From an uncultured Gemmatimonadales bacterium (GTDB taxonomy: Bacteria > Gemmatimonadota > Gemmatimonadetes > Gemmatimonadales > GWC2-71-9): a DNA stretch of 64,000 nucleotides. A program made the position numbers and the translations under genes. Of the stretch, positions 9,852-63,143 are shown piece by piece. The notes under the pieces are model-generated. The model ran no database searches. It was not told the DNA's origin and worked only from the letters and a program-made list of their open reading frames with translations. Numbering within the stretch: position 1 is the first letter of the stretch; every line of letters begins with the position of its first letter. The DNA lies in the NCBI GenBank assembly GCA_963748815.1, contig CAVVKJ010000010.1, positions 1,088,001 to 1,152,000 on the forward strand, written 5' to 3'.

Positions 9852-10799
9852 GTGGCCGTTCCGCTCGTCCAGCTCAGCCGCACCCCCGCCACCCCCAAGG
9901 GGGGGGCATCGACCGTGCCTGCAACCCCCGTCCGGAAGCCGTCCTGGCTCAAGGTCCGGACGCCAGGGGGCCAGAACTACGTGGAAATCCGGGGGATGAT
10001 GCGGGAGCTGGGCCTCCACACGGTGTGCGAGGAGGCTCGCTGCCCGAACATCGGCGAGTGCTGGGAACACAAGGCCGCCACGTTCATGATCCTCGGCGAC
10101 GTCTGCACCCGGAACTGCACCTACTGCGCGGTGGCCCACGGGACGCCCAAGCCGTTCGATCCGGTCGAGCCGGTCCGACTCGCCGAGGCGGTCACCCGGA
10201 TGGGGCTGCAGCACGTGGTCATCACCTCGGTGGACCGGGACGACCTCCCGAACGGCGGGGCCGAGGCCTTCGCGGGATGCATCACCGAAATTCGCGCCCG
10301 GCTCCCCGAGACCTCGGTCGAAGTGCTGATTCCCGACTTCAAGGGCTCCGAACAGGCGCTCCAGCTCGTGATGGACGCCCGCCCCGACATCCTGAACCAC
10401 AATCTCGAGACCCCAGAACGCCTCTACCGTCTGGCCCGGCCGGGAGGCCGCTACGACCGGGCCCTGCGACTCCTCGCCAACGCGCGCCGGATGGGCGGTC
10501 CCGACGCCCTCACCAAGTCGGGGATCATCCTCGGCATGGGCGAGGAGTGGGACGAGGTCCTGGTCTGCATGCGCGATCTCCGCAAGAGCGACGTCAACAT
10601 CCTGACCCTCGGCCAGTATCTCCGCCCCTCCGGCGGCCACCTGCCGATCGCCCGCTACTACACCCCCGATGAGTTCGCCGAGCTCCGCGAGATCGGCCTG
10701 CGGCTCGGGTTCTCCCACGTCGAATCGAGCCCGTTGACCCGTTCCTCGTATCACGCGTGGGAGCAGGTCGACAAGGCCAAAGAACAGAGGAACGCCTGA
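9852..10799 (+). CDS. lipA: Lipoyl synthase
   Basis: TVCEEARCPNIGEC and CTRNCTYC clusters, RSSYHA; AAGGAG RBS before GTG. Confidence 0.95.
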   Translation: MAVPLVQLSRTPATPKGGASTVPATPVRKPSWLKVRTPGGQNYVEIRGMMRELGLHTVCEEARCPNIGECWEHKAATFMILGDVCTRNCTYCAVAHGTPKPFDPVEPVRLAEAVTRMGLQHVVITSVDRDDLPNGGAEAFAGCITEIRARLPETSVEVLIPDFKGSEQALQLVMDARPDILNHNLETPERLYRLARPGGRYDRALRLLANARRMGGPDALTKSGIILGMGEEWDEVLVCMRDLRKSDVNILTLGQYLRPSGGHLPIARYYTPDEFAELREIGLRLGFSHVESSPLTRSSYHAWEQVDKAKEQRNA

Positions 10800-11827: not shown

Positions 11828-11828
11828 C

Positions 11829-26900: not shown

Positions 26901-27394
26901 TCACCGGACTCAAGCGGCAGATCTCCAAGAAGACCGGGAAGGAGTACGCCCGGCTCACCCTGGAGGACTTCCACGGCACCTCGGAGGCGATCGTCTTCCC
27001 CGACGCCTGGGCCAAGCTCAACCAGGTCATCACGGCGGACGCGGCCATTCTGCTGGGCGGCGGCTACAGCGCCCGGGACCGGGGGGAGGACCGGGCGCCC
27101 TTCGTGGTCGAGTCGGCCCGGCCCCTCGCCGAGCTCCGGGAGAGCGGGGCCCTGGGGGTCAGCCTCCGGTGGCGCGCCCCGGACGCCCCCCCGCCCGACG
27201 CCGTCAAGGCCGCCGCGGCCCTCTGCGCGTCGCATCCGGGGCCGGCGCCGGTCTATATTGAATGGAGCGACGGCAACGGCGAGGCCCTCCGGCTTCGCGC
27301 GCGCCGTCTTCGCATTGCCCCCGATGAAGACCTCCTCCGGGCCCTCCGCGAGCTGCTGGGTGCCGGTGCCGTTCACTACGTGAAGGCGGGGTAA
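23905..27394 (+). CDS. dnaE: DNA polymerase III alpha subunit (several frameshifts, likely errors)
   Basis: [16 protein letters not shown] domain, [27 protein letters not shown]-terminal OB fold. Confidence 0.95.
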
Positions 27395-41629: not shown

Positions 41630-44117
<2,488 letters not shown>

Positions 44118-48127: not shown

Positions 48128-49079
48128 CTAGGCCGCATAGCTCGCCAGCGCCCGGCCGATGTCGCCCTCGCCGAGCCGCTTGAGGGCGCGATCGCGGAGC
48201 TGGCGCACCCGCTCGCGGGTCACGCCGAGCATGGTGCCGATTTCCTCGAGGGTGTGTTCCGGCCGTCGTCGAGGCCGAAGTAGAGGCGGAGGACCTGGCG
48301 TCGCGCGGCGGCAGCGAGGCGAGGGCGTGCTCGACTTCCTCGGAGAGGAAGCGTTCCATCGCTCGGGCCTCGACGTCGCTGGAGTCGTCGGCGACGAAGC
48401 GGTCGATGAGGGTGCGTTCGCCGCCGGGATCGAGGGGCGCATCGAGCCGCACGTCGCTGGTGTTGAGCGCCGTCGAGCGACTGGACCACATCCCGGAGAG
48501 CGGTCACCTCGCGGCGACTTCCTCGGGGGTCGGCTCGCGCACCAGTTTCTGGCGGAGGAGTTCGGTAGCGCGGATGATCCGCGAGAGATCGGCGGTGCGG
48601 TTGAGCGGGACGCGGACGGTGCGCCCCTGGCTTGGCGAGTGGCGGCGAGGATGGCCTGGCGGATCCACCAGACGGCGTAGGAGATGAACTTCACGCCCTG
48701 TCGGGATCGAACTTCCGGGCGGCGGTGAGCAGGCCGATGTTGCCCTCGCCGATGAGGTCGGTGAGGGCCATGCCGCGGTTCTGGTACTTCTTGGCGACGG
48801 AGATGACGAAGCGGAGGTTGCGCTTGACGAGCTCCTGCATGGCGTCCTGGTCGCCGGCGCGGACCCGCCGGGCGACGGCGATTTCCTGTTCGCGGGGTGA
48901 GGAGGGGGGTCTTGGAGACCTCGTGGAGGTACTGGTCGAGGATATCGCGCTCGGCGGCGCCCGCGCCAATGGCGCGGGGCGCGCGCCGCGGCGCGAGGCG
49001 GGGAAGCGGGGAAGCGGGGAGGCGGGGAGGGCTCGGCGGCTTCGGGCTTCGGCTTCTTGGCGGACTTCTTGACGGGCAT
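48128..49079 (-). CDS. RpoD/RpoS-like sigma-70 factor (frameshifted)
   Basis: [49 protein letters not shown]. Confidence 0.9.
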
Positions 49080-49096
49080 GGAGGGGCCTTTTCTGC

Positions 49097-49125
49097 TTGA
49101 CACAAGTGCAGCCCGCGTCTAGGTT
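49097..49125 (+). promoter_or_regulatory. Sigma-70 promoter of tRNA operon
   Basis: TTGACA-17 nt-TAGGTT. Confidence 0.65.
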
Positions 49126-49179
49126 TGTGTGCTGTCGCCCAAGCGCTTTTCCGGGCCGGGGTGGCAGGGAATAGATAAT

Positions 49180-49252
49180 GGGGGCGTAGCTCAGTTGGGA
49201 GAGCGCGTGAATGGCATTCACGAGGTCAGGGGTTCGATCCCCCTCGCCTCCA
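49180..49252 (+). tRNA. tRNA-Ala(GGC)
   Basis: Cloverleaf, G3:U70, anticodon GGC. Confidence 0.95.
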
Positions 49253-49868: not shown

Positions 49869-49942
49869 GGGTCCGTAGCTCAGTTGGATAGAGCGCTTGC
49901 CTCCGGAGCAAGAGGTCGTAGGTTCGAATCCTATCGGGCCCA
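49869..49942 (+). tRNA. tRNA-Arg(CCG)
   Basis: Cloverleaf, anticodon CCG. Confidence 0.95.
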
Positions 49943-49946
49943 TCAC

Positions 49947-49997
49947 ACACACACGACACCCCGTCCTCCACGAAGTGGGGGGCGGGGTTTGTGTGTC
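49947..49997. terminator. Bidirectional hairpin at left island edge
   Basis: ACACAC..CCCCGTCCTCCAC-GAA-GTGGGGGGCGGGG..GTGTGT. Confidence 0.6.
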
Positions 49998-50016
49998 AGG
50001 GACTTGTCGAGACGCG

Positions 50017-52206
50017 CTAGTTCCCGGTCCAGACTCCGGGCCGCACCGATCCCACCCAGGCCGGATTGTGGCCGTTGCCACTCTTGTCCGCGACGTCCGT
50101 GGGAGTTGGGTTCAGGTTCAGGTACCACGGCGTCCGCACCGAGCCAGGCGAGGCGATCTCCTGGGCGATCTGGGCCGGAGTCAGCACCACATCATAGAAT
50201 TGATAGCCGCGCAGGATGGCGTTGGGAATTTCCTTCCCCTGATTCCACGGCGCATCCCCGATGATGATCGCCGGGTCGCTCACCATCGAGAGGGCTCGCG
50301 CGTGCGTCCACTGGACCACGCCAGTGGTCGTGTTCGGCCAATTGAAATAGTAGGTATACACCTCATTGTTGCCCACCAGTTCGGCGGTGGCCACCTGCTG
50401 GTACCACTGGTTGTACCCCACGGGCACACCCTGCGCCCCGGACGTCGCCGTTCGGTCATCGCAGTACCCTGCGATTTCCCACTTGTGTTCCATGTTGGTT
50501 TCCCGGTCAGGCCACGGGTGGAAGCCGTAGTAGGTGTGACACGGTACCTCTCCCTGCGTCCACGTGGTTTCATACCTGGCATAGAATAGGAATGTCCAAT
50601 AGGACTGGAGAAAATTGTTGTTCGCCCGTGGGTATGCCCGCCAAATGTAGGTCGCCGGATAGGCGGGCATCGGGGCAGCCCCGCTCCGCGCCTGATTCCA
50701 GGTAAGGATGGCAGACGGGCTCTTCGAGGGGAAGTTGACATTCCCGGGGAAATCGAGGCCGGTGAGCAGCCCGGACGCCTGGGTCACCGTGACCGTACTG
50801 GTATCCGCCAGGCTCCCGCTCTGCTGCTGGGCGATGACCCGGAAGCTGCCCGCCGTATTGCCCGCCGCGTAGAATCCGCCGGAACTGATGCTGCCACCGG
50901 TGGCAGTATAGGTTACCGCCGGCGCCGTCGTGGCTCCGTCGCTCCACTGCCCGCTCACGCTGAACTGCTGCGCGCCGCCGGTGGTGAGCGACGCGGTGCT
51001 CGGCGTCAGGATCACCGCCTGGAGGACCGGCGGCGTGGTGGTCAGCGTGACCGTCGAGGTGTCTGCCAAGGTCCCGCTCTGCTGCCGGGCGATGACCCGG
51101 AAGCTCCCCGCCGTATTCCCCGCCGTGTAGAGCCCAGCACTGGTGACGCCGCCGCCCGTGGCAGTGTAGGTCACCGCCGGTGCCGTTGTGGCCCCATTAC
51201 TCCACTGCCCGCTCACGCTGAACTGCTGCGTGCCGCCGGTGGTGAGCGACGCGGTGCTCGGCGTCAGGATCACGGCCTGGAGGACCGGCGGGGTGGAGCT
51301 GAGGGTCACCGCGCTGGTGTCGGCCAGGGTCCCGCCCTGCTGCACGGCGATGACCCGGAAGCTCCCCGCCGTATTTCCAGCCGTGTAGAGCCCAGCACTG
51401 GTGACGCCGCCGCCCGTGGCACTGTAGGTCACCGCCGGTGCCGTTGTGGCCCCATTACTCCACTGCCCGCTTACGCTGAATTGCTGCGTGGCGCCGGTGC
51501 TGAGCGACGCGCTGCTCGGCGTCAGGAGCACGGCCTGGAGGACCGGCGGGGTGGTGGTGATGGTTACGGCGCTGGTGTCGGCCAAAGTCCCACCTTGCTG
51601 CGTGGCGATCACCCGGAAGCTGCCGGCCGTGCTTCCCGCCGCGTAGAGCCCGCCGGCATTGATGGACCCGCCGGTGGCGCTGTACGTCACCGCCGGCGCC
51701 GTCGTGGTCCCGTTGCTCCACTGCCCGCTCACGCTGAACTGCTGCGTGCCGCCGGTGGTGAGAGACGCCGTGCTCGGCGTCAGGATCACCGCCTGGAGGA
51801 CCGGCGGGGTCACCACGATGATGGTGGAATCCTTCGGGGTACACCTGTACCTGCGGCACCACCAAACCCAGAAAGAGCCAGCACTCAGGGAGCTGAACCG
51901 GGCGGTGGAATCCGTGAGTACCTCGACAGAGCCGCCGCTGGAGCCCCACTCGCCGTCCATCGCCACCTCCTCGCCACCCGGGTTCATGACGCTGGCTCGC
52001 AGCAGGGAACTTTCTCCAATCAGAAGGGCGGCCTTCTCTGCGGTAAGCGTCACCGACTCAACCGCATCCGGGCCAAGACTGTTCTTCAGCTCACCAGGGG
52101 CACAGGCAACGATCAACGATGCAAGCCCGAACGAAACGCGACGCAGGATAGCGCGGATCGCCGGCGGAGCTCGGAGTGCAGAAATTAGATTTGCCACGCT
52201 TGTCAC
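50017..52206 (-). CDS. Surface lipoprotein: Ig-like tandem repeats plus C-terminal ConA/LamG-like domain
   Basis: Lipobox LIVAC; four 86-aa Thr/Ser-rich repeats; Trp/Tyr-rich C-domain with DKSGNGH. Confidence 0.8.
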   Translation of the reverse strand: MTSVANLISALRAPPAIRAILRRVSFGLASLIVACAPGELKNSLGPDAVESVTLTAEKAALLIGESSLLRASVMNPGGEEVAMDGEWGSSGGSVEVLTDSTARFSSLSAGSFWVWWCRRYRCTPKDSTIIVVTPPVLQAVILTPSTASLTTGGTQQFSVSGQWSNGTTTAPAVTYSATGGSINAGGLYAAGSTAGSFRVIATQQGGTLADTSAVTITTTPPVLQAVLLTPSSASLSTGATQQFSVSGQWSNGATTAPAVTYSATGGGVTSAGLYTAGNTAGSFRVIAVQQGGTLADTSAVTLSSTPPVLQAVILTPSTASLTTGGTQQFSVSGQWSNGATTAPAVTYTATGGGVTSAGLYTAGNTAGSFRVIARQQSGTLADTSTVTLTTTPPVLQAVILTPSTASLTTGGAQQFSVSGQWSDGATTAPAVTYTATGGSISSGGFYAAGNTAGSFRVIAQQQSGSLADTSTVTVTQASGLLTGLDFPGNVNFPSKSPSAILTWNQARSGAAPMPAYPATYIWRAYPRANNNFLQSYWTFLFYARYETTWTQGEVPCHTYYGFHPWPDRETNMEHKWEIAGYCDDRTATSGAQGVPVGYNQWYQQVATAELVGNNEVYTYYFNWPNTTTGVVQWTHARALSMVSDPAIIIGDAPWNQGKEIPNAILRGYQFYDVVLTPAQIAQEIASPGSVRTPWYLNLNPTPTDVADKSGNGHNPAWVGSVRPGVWTGN
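50780..51810 (-). repeat. Four tandem 258-bp intragenic repeats
   Basis: PPVLQAV.LTPS..QQFSVSGQWS..AGSFRVIA unit recurs every 258 nt. Confidence 0.9.
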
Positions 52207-52526
52207 CTCATTGGAGTTCCCACGTCAAGGCCAATCAGCCGACTCTCGCGTTCTTGACCCGACGAGGTGGTCTGCTTGGAACTACCGGAAGGATTTACCG
52301 GCGAGTGCCGTAGAACCATCGCTCGAAGGGACGGATTGTGGGCTACACCGGAAGGTGGACAGGCGGCATGTGGGAGGTCGCTGGAGGGAGCTTGGCCGAC
52401 CGCATTGGTTAGGAATCCGGCGTCACTCCTGGATCGCCAGTCGGTCTCGGAAGCGTGGGCGAGTGCGAGGATTGTTGGGGGGGGACCAAGTGCGATATCA
52501 CAAGTCAGGTCAATGAGATCCTATCC

Positions 52527-53630
52527 CTAGGGTCCGGTCCAGACTCCCGGCCGCCCCGGTCCCACCCAAGCCGGGTTGTGGCCGTTGCCACTCTTGTCCG
52601 CGACGTCCGTGGGAGTTGGATTCAGGTTCAGGTACCACGGCGTCCGCACCGAGCCGGGGGAGGCGATCTCCTGGGCGATCTGGGCCGGCGTGAGCGCCAC
52701 ATCATAGAACTGGTAGCCCCGCAGAATGGCATTGGGCACTTCCCTGCCCTGATTCCATGGTGCGTCCCCGATGATGATGGCAGGATCGGTGTTGGGCAAG
52801 TCCTTCGCGTGCGTCCACCGGATCACATCGGTCGTCGTGTTCGGCCAGTTGAAATAGTAGGTGTACACCTCGTTGCCGCCAATCAGTTCGGTGGTGGCGA
52901 CCTGCTGGTACCATTGGTTGTACCCGATGGGCACGCCCTGCGCCCCGGACGTCGCCGTCCGGTCGTCACCAAAAGCGGAAATCTCCCACTTGTGCTCCAT
53001 ATTGGTTTCCCGGTCAGGCCACGGGTGAAAGCCATAGTACGTCTTGGACGGGATCTCCCCCTGCGTCCACGTAGTCTCGTACCTGGCATAGAACAAGAAG
53101 GTCCAGTAGGACTGGAAAAAATTGTTATTCGGTCGTGGGTAGGCTCGCCAAATGTAGGTCGCCGGATAGGCCGGGAACGGAGCCGCGCCGCTCCGAGACT
53201 GATTCCATGTGAGGATGGCGGACGGGCTCGGAGATGGGTAGTTGACGTTCCCGGGGAAATCGAGGCCGGCAAGTGACTCCGATGGCTGTGTCACCGTCGC
53301 CGACGCCGAACCGCGTTGACCTTCACTCGCCGCCGCGATATCAGACAACCCGGCCGCCACTGCTTTGACGAGGCCGTTCCCGTCAACCGTGGCCCGGGAA
53401 GGCTGACTCGACGCCCAAGTCACGATCCGCCCCGTGAGCACAACCCCCGCCGCATCACGCAGCGTCGCCACCAATTGTCTTGACTGCCCTACTTCCAGGA
53501 CCAGGTTTCCGGGGGAAACCGTTACCGAGGCGACTGACGCCGGAACGGACTCCGTCGCGTCCGGACTGCACGAGAACGCCGCACACACCGCCGCGAGCAT
53601 GGCGGAGAGGTTGCGCGCCTGGCTCCACAC
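52527..53630 (-). CDS. Lipoprotein: one Big_2-like domain plus the same C-terminal domain (paralogue)
   Basis: Lipobox AFSC; VASVTVSP..VTWASSQPSRATVD; C-domain near-identical to 50017..52206. Confidence 0.8.
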   Translation of the reverse strand: MWSQARNLSAMLAAVCAAFSCSPDATESVPASVASVTVSPGNLVLEVGQSRQLVATLRDAAGVVLTGRIVTWASSQPSRATVDGNGLVKAVAAGLSDIAAASEGQRGSASATVTQPSESLAGLDFPGNVNYPSPSPSAILTWNQSRSGAAPFPAYPATYIWRAYPRPNNNFFQSYWTFLFYARYETTWTQGEIPSKTYYGFHPWPDRETNMEHKWEISAFGDDRTATSGAQGVPIGYNQWYQQVATTELIGGNEVYTYYFNWPNTTTDVIRWTHAKDLPNTDPAIIIGDAPWNQGREVPNAILRGYQFYDVALTPAQIAQEIASPGSVRTPWYLNLNPTPTDVADKSGNGHNPAWVGPGRPGVWTGP

Positions 53631-53737
53631 GCCCCCGCGTCGATATTCCGGCACGGCGGGGAGCGCCGTGGGCGCCGACGGGAGGAGCACTTCGAGGTGG
53701 CCAGATTCCGGGAAAGCAGGTGGGTACCATCGGGGCA

Positions 53738-54934
53738 TCAGATCGTCCGTTGCGGCGAGCCCAGCGCCTTCGCGAAGCGCCACCAGCGTCGTCCGGCCTG
53801 CAACTGCCCGGCGAGGCGCTCCCCCACCCCCCGGTCCCGGTCGAGCCTGAAGACGCGTTTGAAGAGCTCGTTGGACTGCCAGGGCCGGGAGTCGCCGTGC
53901 CCGGAAGCGCGTGGCTGGATTCCGGCGCTCCAGAGGAGCTTCGCCATCCAGACGGACGGACAGGCCCCGAAGAGCCCGGTCGTGATGTAGCCCCGCTCCA
54001 GCGCGTGGCTCAGGACCGCGGGCTGCTGTGGACGGAGGGCTTCGAGGACGGTCTTCGGGATCGGCGTACCCGACAGGGTGTGTGTGATCGCGAGCGTCCA
54101 GTACGCACACGTTCCGGCTCGTGTGCGGACGGCCAGCTCGGTGAATCGGTCCCAGTCGAAGGGTGCCGCGGCCAGGATGGTCGCGATGTCCCGGACCGTG
54201 CGGCCCATGCCGCTGAACATGTGCGACCAGGCGAAGTGCACGGACAGGTGCAGCAGTTGATGATGATCGGACGGCACCCACGCCTCGACATCGCCAAGCC
54301 TGACCGGCCTGGCGTCACGCCAGAGCTCGGCCACGTCAAGCTGAAACGGCCCGGTCGGAGGCAGCATGGAACGGTGAATTTCCAGCACCAGATTGAGACC
54401 CTTTGGATCCACCAGGCCGGGGAGGTGCTGGTGCCCCTCGAAGAACTGTTCGCCTCCCTCCAGTTCAAGCCCCCACCCGGCCTCCCGCATGATCTGCCAG
54501 GCGCGTTCCGACTCACCGACTGGCACCAGGATGTCGAAGTCTCCCATCGGCCGCTTCAGAAACGACCCATAGACCGTGGTCGCCAGCGCCGCCCCCTTGA
54601 GCAGCATGACGCGGATCCCGTTGCGCGCGAGCGTCGCGGCCACCTCCCGCAGGGCGGTCTCCGTCAACGCCATCCGGAACTCGGTCACGGCGGCCTGGGC
54701 CTGGAACGCCGCCCGGACATCCGGGGGGACGAGCTCGGACTGTGCCCGCATGTACTTCCAGAGCACGGGGAGCAGCTTCTCCCGTTCCGCCAGCGCACCA
54801 ACCGCCCGCCAGTTCGGCCGGGAGGCCGCGAGTGCGGCAAAGTACGTCTCCCCGCACACGGCGTCCGGACGTGCGGCAAGGAAGAGCAACCGGGCCTCGT
54901 CAGGGAGCAGTGGCATGGGAGAAAACCGGTTCAA
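53738..54934 (-). CDS. Nucleotidyltransferase family protein (NTP_transf_5-like)
   Basis: LLKGAAL..YG..RPMGDFDILV, LEIH, LLHLSVH. Confidence 0.85.
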   Translation of the reverse strand: MNRFSPMPLLPDEARLLFLAARPDAVCGETYFAALAASRPNWRAVGALAEREKLLPVLWKYMRAQSELVPPDVRAAFQAQAAVTEFRMALTETALREVAATLARNGIRVMLLKGAALATTVYGSFLKRPMGDFDILVPVGESERAWQIMREAGWGLELEGGEQFFEGHQHLPGLVDPKGLNLVLEIHRSMLPPTGPFQLDVAELWRDARPVRLGDVEAWVPSDHHQLLHLSVHFAWSHMFSGMGRTVRDIATILAAAPFDWDRFTELAVRTRAGTCAYWTLAITHTLSGTPIPKTVLEALRPQQPAVLSHALERGYITTGLFGACPSVWMAKLLWSAGIQPRASGHGDSRPWQSNELFKRVFRLDRDRGVGERLAGQLQAGRRWWRFAKALGSPQRTI

Positions 54935-55731
54935 TATTGGGCCAGGGTGCCCTGTCGGCGCGCGTACCGAAAGGCGGCGGTGATGGCGGCTGTGCCGATC
55001 AAGAAGAGTATAACCGTCGCGGCCGAGAGCGCGAGGAGGTCAGGGGCGACGTCGGCGATGGACGCGTCCTGAAGCACCACGCGCCGGAGCGCGCGGAGTC
55101 CGTAGCTCAGGGGGAGCAGATCCGAGACCGACTGCAGCCAGGAGGGGATCACGTGCGTCGGGTAATAGACTCCGCCAAGCAGCCCGGAGATCATCAGCAC
55201 CCCCTTCGGCAAGGGGCCGGCGGTGCGAAAGGCGAGCACGAGGGCCGCCCCGACCAGGCCGATGGGGACGTGCGCCAACACGACGAGCAGCAGGATGGCG
55301 AGCCCCGGCAGGAATTGCCCGGGCATGAGATTGGCGCCAAGGAGCCACCCGGCCATGAGGAGGATGGCCCCCTTCAGGGCGGCCCACAGCATGTCGAAGG
55401 CGTTCAGGCCGGCGAGGAGGGCGGGGCCGGAGGTCGGCGTGGCCAGCAACGCCTCGAGCACCCCGCTGGCAACTGCGCTGCCGACCGCCGCGGGGAGGGC
55501 TACGACGGCGACGGAAACCACCGAGAACGTGGTCAGGCCGACTAGCAGAAAGCCAAACGACTGCCCCCCCTCCATCTTGATGGCGTTGGCCATGACCGGC
55601 TGGAGTGCGCCGGAGATGAAGTAGAGCGGAACGACCGTAGCGAGGAGGCCGGCGATCGAGACCACCATTTGCAGCCGATAGCTGAGCATCGTCTGCCAGT
55701 GTGCACGGCACAGTGCAGCAATCCGTCTCAT
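54931..55731 (-). CDS. ABC-2 type exporter permease
   Basis: Six TM, GVLEALLATP, LLGGVYYP..PSWLQ..LPLSY. Confidence 0.9.
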   Translation of the reverse strand: MRRIAALCRAHWQTMLSYRLQMVVSIAGLLATVVPLYFISGALQPVMANAIKMEGGQSFGFLLVGLTTFSVVSVAVVALPAAVGSAVASGVLEALLATPTSGPALLAGLNAFDMLWAALKGAILLMAGWLLGANLMPGQFLPGLAILLLVVLAHVPIGLVGAALVLAFRTAGPLPKGVLMISGLLGGVYYPTHVIPSWLQSVSDLLPLSYGLRALRRVVLQDASIADVAPDLLALSAATVILFLIGTAAITAAFRYARRQGTLAQY

Positions 55732-56817
55732 TGCGGTCCCCTCGCGACGACCCGCTCGATCAGATCCGCCAGGCTCAGCGGGACATGCGAGAGCTCGCTT
55801 ACCGGTACACCCTCGGCGACGAGTCGGCTCGTGAGGTCAGCGCACGCCAAAGCGCCGCCGGGGATGGCGCCCTCGAGCTCGCACCATCCAGACTCGGGCG
55901 CGGGCTGCTCGATGAACGGGCCAAGGCCGGTCGTCTGGAGGACTTGTCGTGCCTCGCGCATTCGGTCGGCTGCGACTGAAATCCGGTAGCGGTTCTCGCC
56001 GGCGATCGCGGCGAGTTCCGATGCAGATCCGTGGGCGATGACCGTGCCCCGGTCCAGCACCGCCAGCCGGTCGCAGAGCTCGAATGCCTCGTCCGCGTCG
56101 TGGGTCGCCAGGAGGACGGTACACCCCTGTCGACCGACAATCTCCTCGCGGAGAAATCGGCGAAAGTCGCGGGCGCTCACGGGGTCGAGACTGCGGGTCG
56201 GCTCGTCGAGGAGGAGGACGGCTGGGCGGGAGAGGAGGGCACGCGCGATCAGCAGGCGCTGCTTCATGCCGGAGGAGTAGGTACCGACCATTCGGCTTCC
56301 CGCGTGGGCAGAGTCCGACCGCATCGAGGAGCCGCTCGGCGGTCCGCTCCCGCTCCGCCTGGTTTCACGTCATACAGTGCGGCGTAGAGCGCCAGATTCT
56401 GCAGACCGGAGAGTCGCCAGTAGAGGCTTCGCTCATCGGCGATGACGGGAGTGAGCATCCCGCGCACGGCAGCCGGATCGGTCAGGACGCTGCGACCGCC
56501 GACTTCGACGGAGCCGGCGTCGGGGAGCACCAGGGTCGCCAGGATCTTGAAGAGGGTCGTCTTCCCCGCCCCGTTGGGTCCCAGCAGTCCAAAGAACTCG
56601 CCCTTGTCGAACGTCGAGCGACACGCCCGCGCAGCACCTCGACTTGCTCCCGGTGGAAGGGACGCCGGAGTGTGTCGGTCCACGATCGGCGCAGGGGAAA
56701 GGTCTTCACCAGCCCGTCGACATGAACAATAGGCTTGTGCGCCGGGTCGCCGCGCGAGGCGCCCACGTCCGGCCTGGACCCATCGCGAGCGACCCGAGCG
56801 TCATCGACTGGCTCATG
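55728..56817 (-). CDS. ABC exporter ATPase (frameshifted; start approximate)
   Basis: [24 protein letters not shown] in separate frames. Confidence 0.85.
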
Positions 56818-57779
56818 CCGGGCCCGGAGCGGAGCTGGGGACTCTTGCGCGGAGTGCCATCCCATCAGACTGGAGGTCAGCTCCCCGATCCGCTCGAAGT
56901 CGCGCGGAATTTCCAGCCGGTAGACAGGCACCCGCTCCCCCAGCTCCACCAGGCGCTGCAGCAGCACCGCCCGCCGTTCGACGCCGAGGAGCGCGCCCGA
57001 CCTTCGTCTGGCCGAGGAGCGCGAGGGCAGCTTCGACAGCCGATAGGCGCGTTCCGGTTCACGATGCCCCCTGCGTCAGACTTGATCGGAGCGAGGAGGT
57101 AGACGCGCCGCGAGCGGGACCGCGGCTGTGGCATTCCGATCGGGGTCTTTCCAGGCGACCTGGAGCTTTGGCGCCAGCTGCTCCGGCGTCACGGGTGAGG
57201 CTTGGCCCGCGACCCGTGCGGCGGAGTCGGCCCAGAGTTGCACGACGGGGACGCTGGGCAACACCAGGGGATGCTCGCCGGAGGTGACGGGGACGAGGTC
57301 GTCGGCGAGCAGCCGTCCCCCGGCGTTCACGAGCGCGGTGGCGGTGGTGGACTTTCCGTGGAACTTTGGGCGCGAGAAAGGCGACGGCAACGTCGCCGAG
57401 GGCGACGGCGCTCCCGTGGAGCGTGATGATATCCTCCTGGTCCAGCGCCACGGCGAAGACTCGCCCGAGGATGTCCTTGCGGACGGCGTCCATGTCGGGT
57501 TCGGGCGGTGGCAGCCCAGTCGATCCTCCGGCCATCTGCGGAAATGTCGAACACCCCGGTATCGTCGAACGCGAGGCGGAGGGCCCGACCTGCACGGTAG
57601 AGTGACACGCTGACCCCGGCATCGACGTCCTCTGTCCCCAGTCGGCTCAGGTCAGGGAGAGGGGGTGGTGCGTTCAGGCGGTGGAGGGACCAATCAGGGA
57701 ATTGGGCGGGGCGGGGAATGAGCTCAGGAAACTCTACTTCCGAGCGGAAGACACCGCCGAAGAGATGGTAGTCTGGCAT
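56814..57779 (-). CDS. HPr-kinase-like lasso peptide kinase (frameshifted)
   Basis: LHGSAV, APKFHGKST P-loop, LLADD, VPVYRL. Confidence 0.75.
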
Positions 57780-57843
57780 TGGGAGTCCGGGTTGGAGGGT
57801 CGGACGGCCTGACCCGCTGGCCGCCCGGCCCCACAGTCGGAAC

Positions 57844-57982
57844 CTACGACCGCGTGCACCCAACGGTGCAGCCGTCAAGGAAGCCGCTGCCGAGAAACGC
57901 CACCGTCCCCATCGGCGCCAGTGCCGACGAGGGTGAGGGCCCGAAGGTCCCCGAACCGCTGAAGAGCAGGCTTCTGATACAT
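57844..57982 (-). CDS. Lasso peptide precursor A2 (one extra base near 57894)
   Basis: AAGGAG RBS; MYQKPALQRFGDLRALTL leader (YxxPxLxxxGxxxxxT); corrected core VGTGADGDGGVFGSGFLDGCTVGCTRS. Confidence 0.85.
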
Positions 57983-58036
57983 GATGCGCTCCTTCGAACA
58001 GTATTCACGGGCAGCTGGCCCGCACAGCCCACGGCC

Positions 58037-59999
58037 TCATGCCGCAGGAAACTCCACTGCCCGGTCGCTTGACCCGATGGAGGACAGTGACCGGCGATTC
58101 ACGTTGTTCCAGCCCACGCAGCCAAAATTCGGTCTTGATCGTGTGAAAGAGGTTCACTCTCACGAACTCGTTGCACCAGTCACTGGAGTAACTGTCCACC
58201 GCCCTCCGGAGGGCCGGCAAGTCCACGATGCCAAGTTCCGCGAGTCGCAGCGGTTCGGAGAAGAGTTTCGCGAATAGTGCCGGATAGGATTCGCTCATCC
58301 GGCGTTGTGAGAATCCGATGGTCATTCCCGTTCGGTGAGGTCGCGGCGCCAAGACCGATTCCGGCAGCAAGCCAACCATCGCCTGGCGGAGGAGGATCTT
58401 GGTCTCGGTGCCGTCAGCACGCTCGGCAATTGGCCGCCGAAGTGCGAAGTCCACGATCCTCAAGTCCAGCAGCGGCGATCGAACCTCGACCCCTTCTTGT
58501 AGCAGCGGACCCCGCATGAACGCCCCACCCCACCCCCAAACCGGCAGCGTGAGGTAGAGCAGGCTCTCGGTCTGCGCCAGTCCGTGGCCTCGTACCCTCC
58601 CGAACACCGAAAGATCCCGCTCGCGCAGGCTGCTGCACGGCCAGGAACTCCGGGCGAACCCATGTCGCCGGGGCGCGCTCGAGGTAGTGCCGGGGGAGCC
58701 GGTGCCCGAGCACTCGCTCCCCAAATTGGACGACCGATCGGGGAAGGAGTGGCAGCACTCCGGCTCGGACGAGGTGCCGCCAGCCGCGCGGCCATCGCGT
58801 CCGCGCCGAGCTTCAACGAACTCCCCCCAGCGGCCGGTTCGGAGCAGGTCCGCAAGCAGGACGTCTGACACCTGGAAGAGCTGATCGCCACCACATCCGT
58901 CCAGCGTGACCCGTGCGCCGGCGCGGCGCGTGCCCTGCGCAAGGCCTCGATTCCAGAGTTCGTACAAATGCGCCGGCGGCTCGTCGTACTGTGCCGCGCG
59001 GTCCTCAAGTCGTTCGAGCATCTGGAGATCGTCGCTCTGGAGCCAATGAACCTCAGCCTTCCAGTGCTCAGCGACCTGACGTGATGAACTCGTCCTCGTG
59101 GCCTGGGTCACCCTCCGGATAACTGATCGACACCGGACGAAGTCGTGGCCGTGTCTCGGGGGTCAGGGCATGTTGACCGGCGCGCAAAGACAGCCGTCGA
59201 GTCCCAGCCACCGCTCATCCAGACCGTGCGTCACGCCGCTGGCAGAGCCGTTGGGAGACGGCCGTGCACAGCAGTTCCCGAAGTTCATCTGCGGCCTCAG
59301 CGGACGGCGCTGGATGCCGGTCGGGAGCCTCCCGAGGTTGCCACCAGGTCGCCGTCGCTGCGTCGCCGTCCCGCCAGACGACTCTACGCCCGGGGAGAAG
59401 CGTGTCAACTCCCCTGATACGCTGTGTCCATTCCGTTCGACCATGCCAACCCGGCGACTTGGCCGCCGAGATTGGCCAGGTTCAGCTGGTTGGTCGTGCC
59501 CCGCAGTTCTGCCAGCGCCCGGCAGGAGGAGGCCACGGCAATCCCGGAGCCGAGGCTCGCGCACAAAAAGTGGGCGCCCACCGATCGGGTCCCGCGCCGC
59601 GAGCAGGGTTCGGCGGCGGCGGTCCCAGATCACGAACGCGTAGTCACCGTTCAGGTGGTGGACCATCTCCGAGCCCCACGCGCGGTAGGCCGCTTCCAGG
59701 TAGTGGCTCGCCGTCTCGCCCCGCGCTCGCACGCCAGCCGTCGAGAGCTTCCGCGCGAGTCCCTTCTTGTCAAAGAGCGAGGCGTCCGCCGCCACCACCA
59801 GGTCTGGCGTCTCGAGTACCAGCACGTCGACCGCTGAAATCGTCGTCGAGCTGCCATTCCTTCCGCGTCACGACGAGGAGCGCGTCCTCCTCCGACCAGA
59901 CCTGCTCCCGGTCGCCGCCGAGGTAGCGGAGCGGCGCCGAGCGCCGACTCCACCCGGGAGTCGCGCACCTGACCGATCGACCGCGAGGATGCCGCTCAT
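58037..59999 (-). CDS. Lasso cyclase (asparagine synthetase-like; frameshifted; 3' end approximate)
   Basis: MSGIL start (no catalytic Cys), GDYAFVIWD..AARDPIG, SGGWDST, DGCGGDQLF, EVRSPLLD. Confidence 0.85.
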
Positions 60000-60448
60000 G
60001 GCGCCAGCGCCGAGAAATCGTGCAGCGGCGTGAAGCGGCTGCACCCGCGACCTGCTCGTCACCGATGACCCGGCCCTCGAGCTCGATCCAGGCGTGGGCC
60101 AGCAGCTCCCCCGCAACCTGCGCCACGCCGACCCGGACGACGGCGGGCCCGGCGTTGGCCCGCCGGATCTGGCGCTCCAGCGCCACCGCCCGGACGAGGC
60201 AGGTGGGCCGGAAGAGTCCGAAGCGGGCCACGCGGTCCACCGCCAGGGCCAGCCGCTCCAGACGCGCATCGTTGCGGACACCCGCTCGCCGTCGGTGCCG
60301 CGCTCAGCGGGCGGAGCAGCTCGCCCTTCGGGCGTCGCCGGATCGTCCAGAGCGCCGCCAGGAGATACCACTGGGCGAGGACCAGGTCGGCAAACTCCCG
60401 CGGCGTGAGGGTGAAGAGCCTCCTCACGACACCGCATCCAGCGGTCAA
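59996..60448 (-). CDS. Lasso leader peptidase B2 (transglutaminase-like; frameshifted)
   Basis: TCLVRAVAL..VRVGV..AHAWIE; TGA overlaps cyclase ATG. Confidence 0.85.
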
Positions 60449-60765
60449 ACACCGGCGTCGTCCTCACGTCGACGTCCACCAGCAGCTTGGCCTCGCGGAG
60501 CTGATCGAGCAGTTCCGATGACATCCGCCGCGAGCTGCGCTCCGGGGACGTCGGGATAGACCTGTCCGAGCCGTGCGCAGAGATCTTCCAGGCTGGCGCA
60601 CGCAGGTGGCAGCAACTGCCAGATCCGCGCACCAACATCATTGAGCCCGAAGTAGATCTCATCCTCCATCTGCAGGAGGACGGCGCCTTCGGAGACTTCC
60701 CGGAACATGACGGCCGGGTGGGGACGAGGAAGAATGGTCGGAGCCTCCGCATGAGCGCGGTTCAC
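60445..60765 (-). CDS. PqqD-family RiPP recognition element (lasso B1)
   Basis: EGAVLL..EIYFGLNDVGARIWQLL..L.DV.ELLDQLREAKLL. Confidence 0.85.
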   Translation of the reverse strand: MNRAHAEAPTILPRPHPAVMFREVSEGAVLLQMEDEIYFGLNDVGARIWQLLPPACASLEDLCARLGQVYPDVPGAQLAADVIGTARSAPRGQAAGGRRREDDAGV

Positions 60766-61087
60766 GGGAAATCCCGGATTCGAATTGATTGAGGAACGCC
60801 GGGGCCTCCGGCGAGAGAAGAGCTTGAGGCAAGGACAATTCCCGAACTGCCACCGTGTCGGGAGTCGCCACAAATGCTTGTCAGTGAATGGCTTAGAAAC
60901 TGATGCCACGGGGGATTCGGCGCCCGTGCCGAGTCATCGGCGCCGAGCCGGATCCACGGGAATGTCGGGGGGGCACGACACGACTGCAGAGAGTTGTCAG
61001 TGCACGGGGCTGTCTGTGCGGTGTTGGCTCCTGGGCGAGAGACCGGACGGGCTCGTGTGCGAACCGCCCAGTCTCCCAGAACGTGGC

Positions 61088-61229
61088 CTACGATCTCCCG
61101 GCGCACCCGATGGTGACAACCATCGATGTACCCGGTGCCGAAGATGCCACCGTCCCCATCGGGACCGAGCCCGATGAGTGTGAGGGCCCGAAGGTCCCCA
61201 AACCGCCGAAGTACGGGTTTCTCGTACAA
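61088..61229 (-). CDS. Lasso peptide precursor A1 (TTG start; one extra base near 61115)
   Basis: AGGAG RBS; MYEKPVLRRFGDLRALTL leader; corrected core IGLGPDGDGGIFGTGYIDGCTIGCAGRS. Confidence 0.85.
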
Positions 61230-61339
61230 GCGGGCTCCTGGGAAGAGTGTCACGGGCAACTGGCCCGCACAGTTCGCGACATGGCGCCGCGCCGACCGTG
61301 ACAGACGGTCAAGCGCCCCGCTCGTCACCAGCGGTAAGG

Positions 61340-61355
61340 GCAACTCCCGTTCCAG
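61340..61355 (-). promoter_or_regulatory. Putative sigma-54 promoter of lasso operon
   Basis: CTGGAAC-GGGAG-TTGC on minus strand about 110 nt upstream of A1. Confidence 0.55.
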
Positions 61356-61414
61356 TGATCACGGTCGATGCGGCCAATTGCGCTTCGGAAGACCGCTTGA
61401 CCAAGCAGTTGCAA

Positions 61415-61427
61415 TATCAACACTTTA
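61415..61427. promoter_or_regulatory. IHF consensus site
   Basis: TATCAA-CACT-TTA matches WATCAANNNNTTR. Confidence 0.45.
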
Positions 61428-61584
61428 GGAGCGGTGATCCTCGAGATGGACCGTGCAAATTGTGATGTGGACAACCGGGGAGCCGAGTACCGCAGCGACT
61501 ACGCCACACTTCCCGACACACAACACCCCGTCCCTCCTCTCGGAGAGCGGGGCTTGTGCACTCCCCCGGACCGACCCTCCGGGG

Positions 61585-61986
61585 TCAGACCCGCGCGTTC
61601 GCCACCGCGCGGACCACGTCGCTCTGCGAGATGACTCCCAGCAACTCGCCGTCCTTCTCGACGAAGAGCCGGTGCACGTTGGCGTAGAGCATCTGCTGCG
61701 CCGCCTGCTTCACCTCCGCCTGCGGCTCGATGGTCATCGGCTTCGGCGTCATCAGGTCCCGTACCAGCATGTTCTCGAACATCGCCCCCGCCTCGGCGTC
61801 GACGCCCCGCTCCGCCAACGCGGTCAGGATGTCGCTCGTGGAGAGCACCCCCACCAGGTGCAGGCTGGCATCCACCACCGGCAACCCGGTCACGTGCGCG
61901 TCGGCCAGGGAAATGATCGCTTCGGACATCGGGCTGTCACTGGGGATCGTCACCAGGTTGGACTGCATCAGCTCACTGACTCGCAT
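61585..61986 (-). CDS. CBS domain pair protein
   Basis: VSELM, GLPVVD..LVGVLSTSD, VRDLMT, LLGVISQSD. Confidence 0.9.
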   Translation of the reverse strand: MRVSELMQSNLVTIPSDSPMSEAIISLADAHVTGLPVVDASLHLVGVLSTSDILTALAERGVDAEAGAMFENMLVRDLMTPKPMTIEPQAEVKQAAQQMLYANVHRLFVEKDGELLGVISQSDVVRAVANARV

Positions 61987-62267
61987 AACGACCTCCCGCT
62001 AGGGTCACCTGCAACCTACCCCCCTCCAACGTGCCACACCGTGAACCACCCGTGAACGGGCCTTCACGCAACCATCACCATCCCTTTACCCGGCCGGTCC
62101 AGATTCCCAATCATGCGCACCCGCCCCCGCCCGACCCCTGAGTTCCTCGAGGAATTCCCCTGGCTGGCCCCGGATCCCGAGGCCGCCGAGCGTGACTCTT
62201 ACCGCCCCCATCCCAAGGCCCTCGTGCACCCGGTTCGGCAGTGGCCCCGTCGGCGGAAGGCTCAGGC

Positions 62268-63143
62268 TCAACCCTCCCCCAAGGGGGGGTGAAGGGCCAG
62301 CACCGGCACGTCGGAGCCACGCACCACCTTGTCGGTCACACTCCCCAGCACCAATCGCTTGACCCCCACCGCGCCCCGCGTGGCGATGGCCACGCAGTCG
62401 GTGGCCTCCGGTCGTGCCTGGTCCAGGATCGCCTGCGCCGGCGAGTCCGACACCACCACCGTGGTGCTCACCCGGCAGCCGCGCCGCTCCAGCCGATCCG
62501 CGACTTCGTCCAGATAGATTGCCGCCGCACTCCGGCCCTGCGCCGCCGCGTTGGCCTCCGGGGTCACGACCCGCAACAGCGCCAGCTCGGCCGTCGGCGG
62601 CGGGCAGAGCGCCAGCGCCGGCTCGATAACCGCTTCGGCCCGCTCCGACCCGTCGAGCGCAATCAGCATCCGCCGAAACGCCATCCGGCTCTCCTGCACC
62701 GTCTCCTCCTTGTGCCTGAGCAGCAGGAGCGGCACGTCAAGATGCCGCAGCAGGTGATCGGCCACACTCCCCAGCCAGAACCGGCTCACGGCGCCGCGGC
62801 CGTGCGTGGTCATCACCACCATCCCCGCCCCGATCCGGGTCACATACGCTGCGAGCGTCTCGGCGACCGGGCCGTCCAGGATCTTCGTTTCGGTGTGAAT
62901 GCCGTAGTGGAGACGCATCCGCTCCGCGAGTTGCACCAGGTACTGCTCCTCGCCCTCCCGGGCCAGGCGATCGAGGTCGTCGATGGCCGTCGCCATCGCC
63001 GCCGAGTCCGCGCTTGGAGCGACCGGGTGGTGAACCAGCGCCATATGGAGCACGGCGCCGGTGCGGCGTGCGGTGGCGCAGGCGGCGCGCAACGACTCCT
63101 CCGCGAGCCGGGATCCGTCGAGCGGGGTCAGGATGGCGCGCAC
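62268..63143 (-). CDS. Universal stress protein (tandem USP)
   Basis: ILTPLDGS, MTTHGRG..WLGSVAD, LVLGSVTDKVVR. Confidence 0.9.
   Translation of the reverse strand: MRAILTPLDGSRLAEESLRAACATARRTGAVLHMALVHHPVAPSADSAAMATAIDDLDRLAREGEEQYLVQLAERMRLHYGIHTETKILDGPVAETLAAYVTRIGAGMVVMTTHGRGAVSRFWLGSVADHLLRHLDVPLLLLRHKEETVQESRMAFRRMLIALDGSERAEAVIEPALALCPPPTAELALLRVVTPEANAAAQGRSAAAIYLDEVADRLERRGCRVSTTVVVSDSPAQAILDQARPEATDCVAIATRGAVGVKRLVLGSVTDKVVRGSDVPVLALHPPLGEG

What the first reader, a model, noticed from the sequence alone, without database searches (positions are those of the whole stretch)
57844..61229. Two hidden paralogous precursor genes, each restored by removing one base
Seen: A1 (61229-61088, TTG start) gives MYEKPVLRRFGDLRALTL-IGLGPDGDGGIFGTGYIDGCTIGCAGRS. 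A2 (57982-57844) gives MYQKPALQRFGDLRALTL-VGTGADGDGGVFGSGFLDGCTVGCTRS. The leaders match at 15/18 positions and carry the RRE-binding YxxPxL motif, the conserved Gly and Thr(-2). The extra bases sit at different positions (about 61115 and 57894), so each copy shows the correct frame across the other's break. The ORF track calls neither. A2 sits mid-operon between cyclase and kinase.
Basis: seen in the sequence. Interest (0 to 1): 0.88.

Follow-up and report, generated by a model that had tools for sequence, protein, structure and literature searches.

The report
Lasso-peptide genes broken by assembly errors
Two small genes for knotted "lasso" peptides really are there, but the single extra base that breaks each one is most likely an error of a noisy genome assembly, so this is an ordinary antibiotic-type gene cluster that the errors had hidden.

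Summary
On the minus strand, A2 (ATG 57982) and A1 (TTG 61229) encode lasso-peptide leaders. Both pass NCBIfam NF033521, with Tyr-17, Pro-14, Leu-12, Thr-2 and Asp8. Each gene carries one base that no homologue has: C at 57894 and C at 61115. Downstream of each break the next frame reads a family-typical tail with two Cys that ends in Arg-Ser-stop.

Intact relatives confirm that frame:
- a third paralogue about 20 kb away in the same genome;
- an A2-type orthologue in a same-genus genome;
- an A1 orthologue with the same TTG start on a metagenome contig;
- 40 distinct intact family peptides in all, 37 ending in Ser.

The genes lie in a B1-B2-cyclase-A-kinase-ABC-nucleotidyltransferase cluster of a Gemmatimonadales MAG. 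This is the paeninodin/pseudomycoidin type, which modifies the C-terminal Ser.

The extra bases are very probably not biology. About 22 further isolated one-base insertions, against about 2 deletions, break the cyclase, B2, kinase and ATPase over 4.5 kb. The same signature shatters atpA into at least 6 frame pieces and one dnaE into at least 5 elsewhere in the window.

No reads could be obtained. My verdict is real precursor genes with artefactual breaks, about 85% confident. A conserved twin hairpin upstream of every precursor gene was noticed in passing.

The parts
61116..61229 (-). A1, 5' part: TTG start, 18-residue leader, and core residues 1-20 up to the first Cys
   Evidence: Translation. 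NF033521 scores 25.3 bits against a cut-off of 19. The Shine-Dalgarno AGGAG lies at 61235-61239. The intact orthologue L055 has the same TTG start.
61115..61115 (-). Extra base (C) that breaks A1
   Evidence: In DNA alignment A2 this column is filled only by the window's A1; the other 4 of 5 sequences have a gap. Three references support it as an isolated extra base (listed at 61116).
61088..61114 (-). A1 tail in the next frame: TIGCAGRS plus stop
   Evidence: Translation. It aligns with the tails of L055, L016 and L054.
61252..61292 (-). Twin-hairpin element upstream of A1 (helix 1 at 61292-61274, helix 2 at 61268-61252)
   Evidence: Alignment A3 and pair counts. Coordinates were derived by me from the alignment row.
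60445..60909 (-). B1: PqqD-like leader-binding protein (RRE). The homology-supported part is 60517-60750.
   Evidence: PF05402, E = 4.4e-11. One frame, 65% identity to the G009 B1.
60049..60430 (-). B2: transglutaminase-like leader peptidase, split over two frames
   Evidence: PF13471, E = 7.4e-11. NF033537 scores 44.2 bits against a cut-off of 33. The frame changes near 60280.
58005..59934 (-). C: Asn-synthetase-like lasso cyclase, split over at least five frame pieces
   Evidence: PF00733 and PF13537; NF033535. Frames run 3>1>2>3>1. Extra bases lie at 59830, 59410, 59244, 59229, 59184 and 59083, each supported by 2-9 references.
58007..58047 (-). Twin-hairpin element upstream of A2 (helix 1 at 58047-58029, with TGA in its loop; helix 2 at 58023-58007)
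   Evidence: The minimum-energy fold of this copy shows both hairpins.
57896..57982 (-). A2, 5' part: ATG start, 18-residue leader, and core residues 1-11
   Evidence: Translation. NF033521 scores 24.2 bits against a cut-off of 19. The Shine-Dalgarno GAAGGAG lies at 57989-57995.
57894..57894 (-). Extra base (C) that breaks A2
   Evidence: In DNA alignment A2 this column is filled only by the window's A2. One search lists it at 57894 (2 references) and 57899 (3 references); these are the same event placed differently.
57844..57891 (-). A2 tail in the next frame: GSGFLDGCTVGCTRS plus stop
   Evidence: Translation; alignment.
56854..57812 (-). K: HPr-kinase-like kinase, split over three frames
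   Evidence: tblastn with the intact G009 kinase gives frames 1>2>3. PF07475 E = 0.0024 and TIGR04352 E = 0.0013, both below their cut-offs. Extra bases at 57515 and 57365.
55728..56745 (-). ABC transporter ATPase, split over three frames
   Evidence: PF00005 is found in two separate ORFs. Frames run 3>2>1.
54931..55731 (-). ABC-2 permease, intact
   Evidence: PF01061, E = 3.3e-16.
53738..54934 (-). NTP_transf_5 nucleotidyltransferase, intact
   Evidence: PF14907, E = 1.5e-43. A single frame of 392 aa against the G009 homologue.

Best explanation
A1 and A2 are genuine paralogous precursor genes of a lasso-peptide cluster in a Gemmatimonadales genome. The single extra base in each is a consensus error of the assembly, not a feature of the organism.

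Inferred pathway (by analogy with characterised systems; none of it is shown here):
1. The PqqD-like B1 protein binds the leader through Tyr-17/Pro-14/Leu-12.
2. The HPr-kinase-like enzyme phosphorylates the C-terminal Ser of the linear precursor.
3. The NTP_transf_5 enzyme may add sugar to that phosphate.
4. B2 cuts after Thr-2/Leu-1.
5. The Asn-synthetase-like cyclase joins the new N-terminus (Ile or Val 1) to Asp8, forming an 8-residue ring.
6. The two tail Cys may form a disulfide.
7. The ABC-2 transporter exports the product.

One enzyme set would serve both A1 (ahead of B1) and A2 (after the cyclase).
For: Gene identity:
- Both leaders pass NF033521.
- The cluster order is B1, B2, C, A2, K, ABC ATPase, permease, NTP_transf_5.
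- The same order C-A-K recurs widely: the kinase sits directly after the precursor in 30 of 40 related loci.

Frame:
- The intact third paralogue is L003:1502-1651, in the same genome.
- The intact A2-type orthologue is L016, in a syntenic locus of G009 that has the same Usp and CBS genes upstream.
- The intact A1 orthologue L055 has the same TTG start and follows a CBS gene.
- Of 40 distinct intact family peptides, 37 end in Ser, 39 have Thr-2, and 32 have Asp or Glu at core position 8.
- The family profile matches all other genomes through the tail but stops at positions 42 and 29 for the window's A1 and A2.

Artefact:
- In window 53001-62500, 27 isolated one-base 'extra' sites against 3 'missing' sites are each supported by at least 2 independent references. 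That is about 23 and 2 distinct events, and 22 of the extras lie in 56604-61116.
- At that local rate of about 1 per 205 nt, two 140-nt genes are both hit roughly one time in four (my arithmetic).
- atpA (window 42544-44087) is cut into at least 6 frame pieces, and no piece reaches the family cut-off.
- dnaE (window 23911-26998) is in at least 5 pieces.
- Using ORFs of the syntenic genome G001 as queries, G000 shows 45 frame switches over 83,888 aligned aa. They are clumped and include 5 in dnaE, 4 in atpA and 3 in a nuoG-like gene.
- There are 117 isolated extra bases in G000 over 241,164 aligned columns, and 80 of them are not next to an identical base.
- In the second cluster, 6 of the 8 gaps against G001 are extra bases in G000, while G001 keeps single ORFs of 477 and 383 aa.
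Against: - No reads were seen, because no sequencing run was listed.
- The errors are not uniform. rpoB and rpoC are intact over about 9 kb, so a local cause must be assumed. I infer segments built from very few reads, but this is unproven.
- G001, the main reference, is itself imperfect: it shows 33 frame switches in the reciprocal test.
- Cluster 1 is accessory and absent from G001, so real decay of this cluster alone cannot be strictly excluded.
- Some homology segments contain stops: 13 in 2,654 aligned aa (overlapping hits from two cyclase queries are counted separately). All are in segments that also span further insertion sites, so I cannot show that no true nonsense mutation exists.
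- The kinase matches its families only below their curated cut-offs.
Confidence: 0.85

Rival explanations
1. The extra bases are real. Cluster 1 would then be a decaying, pseudogenised duplicate whose precursors, cyclase, B2, kinase and ATPase have all accumulated frameshifts, while the second cluster (A3) does the work.
For: Cluster 1 is accessory: G000 1137.9-1149.5 kb corresponds to only 5.7 kb in G001, and it matches only G001's other cluster, at 66-70% identity. It carries about 22 breaks in 4.5 kb. A3 is intact.
Against: The second cluster is broken in the same way, with 6 extra bases in 3.1 kb. The same isolated-insertion signature breaks the F1 atpA and a dnaE, which cannot plausibly all be pseudogenes. 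About 23 insertions against about 2 deletions is the opposite of the deletion bias usually described for bacterial gene decay (that bias is recalled, not tested). The protein sequence between breaks stays 45-75% identical to intact homologues.
Confidence: 0.1
2. The extra bases are real and are bypassed by programmed +1 ribosomal frameshifting or transcriptional slippage, which would make precursor output tunable.
For: Both breaks need the same +1 correction.
Against: The two sites differ in position and context and share no slippery motif. None of the 40 distinct intact family peptides from other genomes and metagenome contigs needs a shift, including the closest orthologues L055, L016 and L054. 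The same kind of break occurs about 20 more times in the neighbouring enzymes.
Confidence: 0.02
3. The genes are correct as written. A2 would make a 17-residue core ending in Pro, and A1 would be the start of a 193-aa protein.
For: The as-written A2 is an open 35-codon ORF with a plausible ring and a short tail.
Against: The as-written tails have no counterpart in any homologue, whereas the shifted frames align to the stop codon. The as-written A2 lacks the terminal Ser found in 37 of 40 relatives, although a kinase gene follows it. The A1 read-through runs across the intergenic region into B1 and has no Pfam match.
Confidence: 0.03

Closest known systems
Paeninodin-type phosphorylated lasso peptide clusters (Paenibacillus dendritiformis C454 and relatives), as described in the review PMC8498205 (passages read)
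   Same: Split B1/B2, a cyclase, an ABC exporter and an HPr-kinase-like gene. The precursor ends in Ser, the residue that kinase phosphorylates on the linear precursor.
   Different: The phylum is different (Gemmatimonadota). The gene order is B1-B2-C-A-K, with the precursor after the cyclase and a second precursor ahead of B1. Cores are long (median 28.5 residues in the family). Most members have two Cys in the tail. The kinase is only weakly similar to HprK families, scoring below their cut-offs.
Pseudomycoidin cluster of Bacillus pseudomycoides DSM 12442 (Zyubko et al. 2019, seen only as cited and summarised in PMC8498205)
   Same: A kinase together with a nucleotidyltransferase gene. There, the C-terminal phospho-Ser receives one or two hexoses. 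The window has a PF14907 NTP_transf_5 gene at the end of the operon.
   Different: Whether the Gemmatimonadales enzyme is orthologous was not tested, and no chemistry is known here.
bsf cluster of Bradymonas sediminis FA350 (PMC10368454, abstract and passages read)
   Same: YxxPxL at -17..-12, a ring closed on Asp8, and kinase (K) and N genes in related clusters.
   Different: BsfK phosphorylates Ser3, not the C-terminal Ser, and its leader has Ile at -2. The present family has Thr at -2 (39 of 40) and no conserved Ser other than the last residue.
NCBIfam NF033521, 'lasso RiPP family leader peptide-containing protein'
   Same: A1, A2, A3 and the intact homologues all score above its cut-off.
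   Different: The model covers only the 20-residue leader. It says nothing about the core, the tail or the tailoring.

Membership tests
Lasso peptide precursor (leader family NF033521) | Score at or above the curated cut-off of the leader model | tested here: met
   A2 scores 24.2 bits and A1 25.3 bits against a cut-off of 19. Intact homologues score 22.0-24.0 bits.
Lasso peptide precursor (leader family NF033521) | YxxPxL at -17..-12 and Thr at -2 of the leader (definition from PMC10368454, passages read) | tested here: met
   Y2, P5, L7 and T17 of an 18-residue leader are present in both genes. Thr-2 is present in 39 of 40 family peptides.
Lasso peptide precursor (leader family NF033521) | Asp or Glu at core position 7-9 to close the macrolactam ring | tested here: met
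   Asp at core position 8 in A1 and A2. It is invariant in the 12-sequence alignment and is D or E in 32 of 40 peptides.
Lasso peptide precursor (leader family NF033521) | Neighbouring B1 (PqqD/RRE), B2 (transglutaminase-like) and C (Asn-synthetase-like) genes | tested here: met
   PF05402, PF13471, PF00733 and PF13537; NF033537 scores above its cut-off. B2 and C are readable only across frame breaks.
Lasso peptide precursor (leader family NF033521) | Threaded lariat topology of the mature peptide | not testable with these tools
   Needs isolation followed by MS/NMR.
C-terminally phosphorylated or phosphoglycosylated lasso peptides (paeninodin / pseudomycoidin type) | Core peptide ends in Ser | tested here: met
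   Met only in the frame after each extra base. As written, neither gene ends in Ser. Of the relatives, 37 of 40 end in Ser.
C-terminally phosphorylated or phosphoglycosylated lasso peptides (paeninodin / pseudomycoidin type) | HPr-kinase-like kinase gene in the cluster | tested here: inconclusive
   PF07475 gives E = 0.0024 at 17.8 bits (cut-off 33.3). TIGR04352 gives 17.9 bits in the window piece and 27.6 bits in the intact G009 homologue (cut-off 200). The similarity is real but below the family thresholds.
C-terminally phosphorylated or phosphoglycosylated lasso peptides (paeninodin / pseudomycoidin type) | Nucleotidyltransferase (N) gene in the cluster | tested here: met
   PF14907 NTP_transf_5, E = 1.5e-43 at 149.6 bits against a cut-off of 31.2. 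Orthology to PsmN was not tested.
C-terminally phosphorylated or phosphoglycosylated lasso peptides (paeninodin / pseudomycoidin type) | Phosphate (and hexose) on the terminal Ser of the product | not testable with these tools
   Needs expression and mass spectrometry.
Programmed +1 frameshift genes (prfB-like recoding) | Shift site conserved in homologues, with a shared slippery or stimulatory motif | tested here: not met
   All 40 distinct intact family peptides from other genomes and contigs are read from uninterrupted frames. The two window sites differ in position and sequence.

The most novel reading that the evidence does not exclude
Setting the artefactual breaks aside, these genes would define an uncharacterised Gemmatimonadota lasso subfamily. 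Its features are:
- unusually long cores (27-28 residues for A1 and A2, up to 41 in the family);
- an Ile/Val1-Asp8 ring;
- a Cys pair in the tail;
- an invariant C-terminal Ser, the likely target for phospho(glyco)sylation.

In this reading, precursor dosage is set by a previously undescribed twin-hairpin RNA leader. The leader was copied together with the precursor when A1 arose, and it acts as a processing or stability element.
Probability: 0.3. Interest if true: 0.45.

Novelty: new member of a known kind. Interest (0 to 1): 0.25.

Why it matters
There are two practical lessons.

1. **Assembly quality.** This assembly carries clumps of single-base insertions. They hide short genes and split long ones. 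Any 'frameshifted', 'split' or 'pseudogene' reading in this genome, and probably in its few-contig relatives, must first be checked against intact homologues. Essential genes in this very window (atpA, dnaE) are affected.

2. **The cluster itself.** Once the errors are read through, the window holds a complete two-precursor lasso cluster of the kinase-plus-nucleotidyltransferase type, from a phylum with no characterised lasso peptide that I could find. One search listed 20 papers; I read passages of one, which only counts lasso clusters in 29 marine MAGs. The family occurs in 32 of 251 sampled genomes of the phylum (that tally includes one unpublished genome, G189). It offers long, Cys-containing, Ser-terminated cores for heterologous expression.

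None of this would surprise a RiPP specialist.

Tried and rejected
- **Read pile-ups.** The search for sequencing runs listed none, so no reads could be laid on the region. The decisive test remains undone.
- **Uniformly noisy assembly.** Rejected. rpoB (1492-aa open frame) and rpoC (1540 aa) are intact. The errors are clumped, not uniform.
- **GC3 frame plot of the cluster.** Too noisy to place breaks. I replaced it with homology-based mapping.
- **Known RNA families.** Rfam found nothing in 53000-62500 at E <= 1.
- **Promoter and terminator scan of 57600-61700.** It found one promoter-like and one terminator-like site, both inside the cyclase gene and neither near A1 or A2.
- **Single-sequence folding of the upstream elements.** The energies are no better than shuffles, with z from -1.1 to +0.4. 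Support for the hairpins therefore rests on covariation only.
- **Earlier notes of this scan.** Nothing was found on this locus or this peptide.
- **An earlier 'gene remnants' note about 410 kb upstream.** I checked whether it sits in an insertion clump. Only 4 isolated indel sites were found over 9 kb, so there is no clump there.
- **Nonsense mutations.** I could not settle whether any true nonsense mutation exists in the cluster.
- **Complex prediction of B1 with the leader.** Not run. It is a textbook pair, and a pass would not change the verdict.
Full report
**1. The observation**

The minus strand at 57982 starts with ATG behind a GAAGGAG Shine-Dalgarno. It reads MYQKPALQRFGDLRALTLVGTGADGDGGV up to 57896.
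- As written, the frame continues to a stop at 57875, giving a 35-codon ORF.
- The next frame, from 57891, reads GSGFLDGCTVGCTRS-stop.

At 61229 a TTG behind AGGAG opens LYEKPVLRRFGDLRALTLIGLGPDGDGGIFGTGYIDGC, up to 61116.
- As written, this runs on inside a 193-codon ORF.
- The next frame, from 61114, reads TIGCAGRS-stop.

The two loci match at 77% over 172 nt, E = 8e-29.

A five-sequence DNA alignment with three intact homologues pins each break to one column that only the window copy fills: C57894 in A2 and C61115 in A1. Conservation continues to the shared stop codon.

**2. What the genes are**

Both leaders pass NCBIfam NF033521, 'lasso RiPP family leader peptide-containing protein', at 24.2 and 25.3 bits against a cut-off of 19. 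With an 18-residue leader, Tyr, Pro and Leu fall at -17, -14 and -12 and Thr falls at -2. These are the positions given for lasso leaders in PMC10368454 (passages read). Asp sits at core position 8.

The neighbours on the same strand, in order, are:
- A1
- PqqD-like B1
- transglutaminase-like B2
- Asn-synthetase-like cyclase
- A2
- an HPr-kinase-like gene
- an ABC ATPase
- an ABC-2 permease
- an NTP_transf_5 nucleotidyltransferase

. The kinase resembles HprK families only below their cut-offs.

**3. Relatives fix the frame**

- The same genome holds a third, uninterrupted paralogue about 20 kb downstream of the window (L003:1502-1651). Its tail reads ...DGCEWSGCRS and a kinase gene follows it.
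- A search of 60 relatives found intact precursors in 11 of them, including 8 of 16 same-genus genomes.
- G009 carries an A2-type orthologue, MYQKPAVQRFGDLRALTLIGLGADGDGGVFGSGYLDGCAIGCSRS. Its locus shares the upstream Usp and CBS genes with the window.
- A metagenome contig (L055) carries an A1 orthologue with the same TTG start, directly after a CBS gene, with an uninterrupted frame ending ...GCAIGCTGRS.

I collected 40 distinct complete family peptides. The window's own A1/A2 loci and the G001 synteny blocks were left out before counting. Among the 40:
- 37 end in Ser and 27 end in Arg-Ser
- 39 have Thr-2
- 32 have Asp or Glu at core position 8
- 25 have at least two Cys
- cores are 11-41 residues long, median 28.5

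In 30 of 40 related loci a kinase gene follows the precursor directly.

The family is found in 32 of 251 genomes sampled across the phylum, in 22 of 107 genera (the tally includes G000 and one unpublished genome, G189). Record titles of related loci name Gemmatimonadales or Gemmatimonadaceae MAGs.

**4. Why the extra bases are most likely errors**

The cluster is riddled with breaks.
- Against intact G009 proteins, the cyclase is read in frames 3>1>2>3>1, B2 in 2>3, the kinase in 1>2>3 and the ATPase in 3>2>1. B1, the permease and the nucleotidyltransferase are whole.
- Nucleotide alignments to up to 15 reference loci give 27 isolated one-base 'extra' sites and 3 'missing' sites in 53001-62500, each supported by at least 2 references. 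After merging pairs no more than 7 nt apart, that is about 23 insertions and 2 deletions. Of the insertions, 22 lie within 56604-61116.
- At that local density, about 1 per 205 nt, hitting both 140-nt precursor genes is expected roughly one time in four (my arithmetic).

The same signature is found in genes that cannot be dispensable.
- atpA (window 42544-44087) is cut into at least 6 frame pieces.
- One dnaE (window 23911-26998) is cut into at least 5 pieces. A second dnaE-like gene on another contig is whole.

The comparison with the syntenic same-genus genome G001 (about 88% nucleotide identity) points the same way.
- With G001 ORFs as queries, G000 shows 45 frame switches over 83,888 aligned residues. 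These include 5 in dnaE, 4 in atpA and 3 in a nuoG-like gene.
- The reciprocal test finds 33 switches in G001, so both are imperfect assemblies.
- G000 has 117 isolated extra bases over 241,164 aligned columns, against 74 in G001. Of the 117, 80 are not next to an identical base.
- The extras fall in 3-5 kb clumps at C10 962-966 kb, 1128.7-1132 kb and 1167.9-1173.2 kb.
- In the second lasso cluster, 6 of the 8 gaps against G001 are extra bases in G000, while G001 keeps single ORFs.

The weaknesses of this reading are as follows.
- rpoB and rpoC are intact, so the error process is local. I infer stretches whose consensus rests on very few reads, but I cannot show this.
- Cluster 1 is absent from G001, which leaves some room for real decay.
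- Stops seen in a few homology segments all lie in segments that span further insertion sites, and I could not resolve them.

**5. How it most likely works**

This is inferred from the review PMC8498205 and from PMC10368454 (passages read). Nothing here is experimental for this organism.
1. B1 binds the leader.
2. The kinase phosphorylates the C-terminal Ser of the linear precursor, as in paeninodin.
3. The NTP_transf_5 enzyme may glycosylate that phosphate, as in pseudomycoidin.
4. B2 removes the leader after Thr-2/Leu-1.
5. The cyclase closes an Ile/Val1-Asp8 ring.
6. The ABC-2 system exports the product.

The two tail Cys may form a disulfide. A tail-internal disulfide class is something I recall, not something I tested.

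The terminal Ser exists only in the corrected frames. This is a further reason to regard the as-written ORFs as wrong.

**6. Rivals**

- Real pseudogenisation, about 0.10.
- The as-written products are real, about 0.03.
- Programmed +1 frameshifting, about 0.02.

All three are disfavoured by the intact homologues, the different break contexts, and the identical damage to essential genes.

**7. Noticed in passing: a twin hairpin**

Every precursor gene of the family is preceded by two short GC-rich hairpins and a conserved CTG-containing linker, about 20 nt ahead of the Shine-Dalgarno.
- It lies upstream of A2 at 58047-58007, where the loop of helix 1 holds a TGA that is probably the true cyclase stop.
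- It also lies upstream of A1 at 61292-61252, although no cyclase gene precedes A1.

The evidence comes from a 31-sequence alignment.
- 89.1% of cells pair, against 35-54% when the partners are slid.
- 11 of 13 pairs show changes on both sides.
- No shuffle out of 500 reaches the observed values.
- RNAalifold on its own finds 9 of the pairs, 8 of them with compensatory changes.

Against it: single-sequence folding energies are no better than shuffles, part of helix 1 overlaps coding sequence, and the sequences are related. Rfam has no match. I read it as a candidate processing or stability element for the precursor message, at moderate confidence.

**8. Verdict**

The breaks are artefacts of the assembly. 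The cluster is a new member of the known kinase-plus-nucleotidyltransferase lasso type, from an under-studied phylum. Interest is low to moderate.

Noticed in passing
window 58007-58047 and 61252-61292 (minus strand); alignment A3 of 31 loci: A conserved twin-hairpin element with compensatory base changes lies upstream of every precursor gene of the family, including A1, which does not follow a cyclase. It has no Rfam match. I read it as a candidate processing or stability leader for the precursor mRNA.
   Followed up: partly
window 42544-44087 (atpA) and 23911-26998 (dnaE); also G000:C10 962-966 kb: Essential genes are cut into 5-6 frame pieces by clumps of isolated single-base insertions. 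The assembly has local error clumps 3-5 kb long, while rpoB and rpoC are clean.
   Followed up: yes
G000:C10 about 1166.3-1173.2 kb (L003, L005), outside the window: A second, inverted lasso cluster has an intact third precursor (50 aa) followed by kinase, ABC and NTP_transf_5 genes. Its cyclase and kinase are also broken by extra bases. G001 has the same cluster with whole ORFs and an identical peptide.
   Followed up: partly
window about 49900-61500, compared with G001:C3 1118.2-1123.9 kb: The whole first lasso cluster and two large paralogous proteins (50017-52206 and 52527-54281, which share a C-terminal region of about 250 aa) lie in an 11.6-kb stretch that is only 5.7 kb in the syntenic relative G001. 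The stretch is therefore an accessory insertion or a deletion polymorphism.
   Followed up: partly
L035 (G009:C24) 3861-7295 and 10146-12700: The orthologous cluster in G009 has a GNAT-like gene and two GT2 glycosyltransferase genes between CBS and B1. It has no kinase, ABC or nucleotidyltransferase gene after the precursor, although that precursor still ends in Arg-Ser. G009's other cluster (L037) does have them, so tailoring may act in trans or may differ.
   Followed up: no
window 48128-49221 (minus strand): A sigma-70 family gene appears as three overlapping ORFs in different frames. An orthologue in L036 is a single 352-aa ORF with regions 1.2, 2, 3 and 4. This is probably more insertion errors; the breaks were not mapped.
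   Followed up: no
L064, L070, L071 (metagenome contigs): Several related clusters carry two tandem precursor genes with different cores, so multi-precursor clusters are common in this family.
   Followed up: no
G000:C10 676001-685000 (L080): I checked whether the block of truncated lipoprotein paralogues noted earlier in this scan lies in an insertion-error clump. Only 4 isolated indel sites were found over 9 kb against four relatives, so that earlier reading is not undermined by this artefact.
   Followed up: yes
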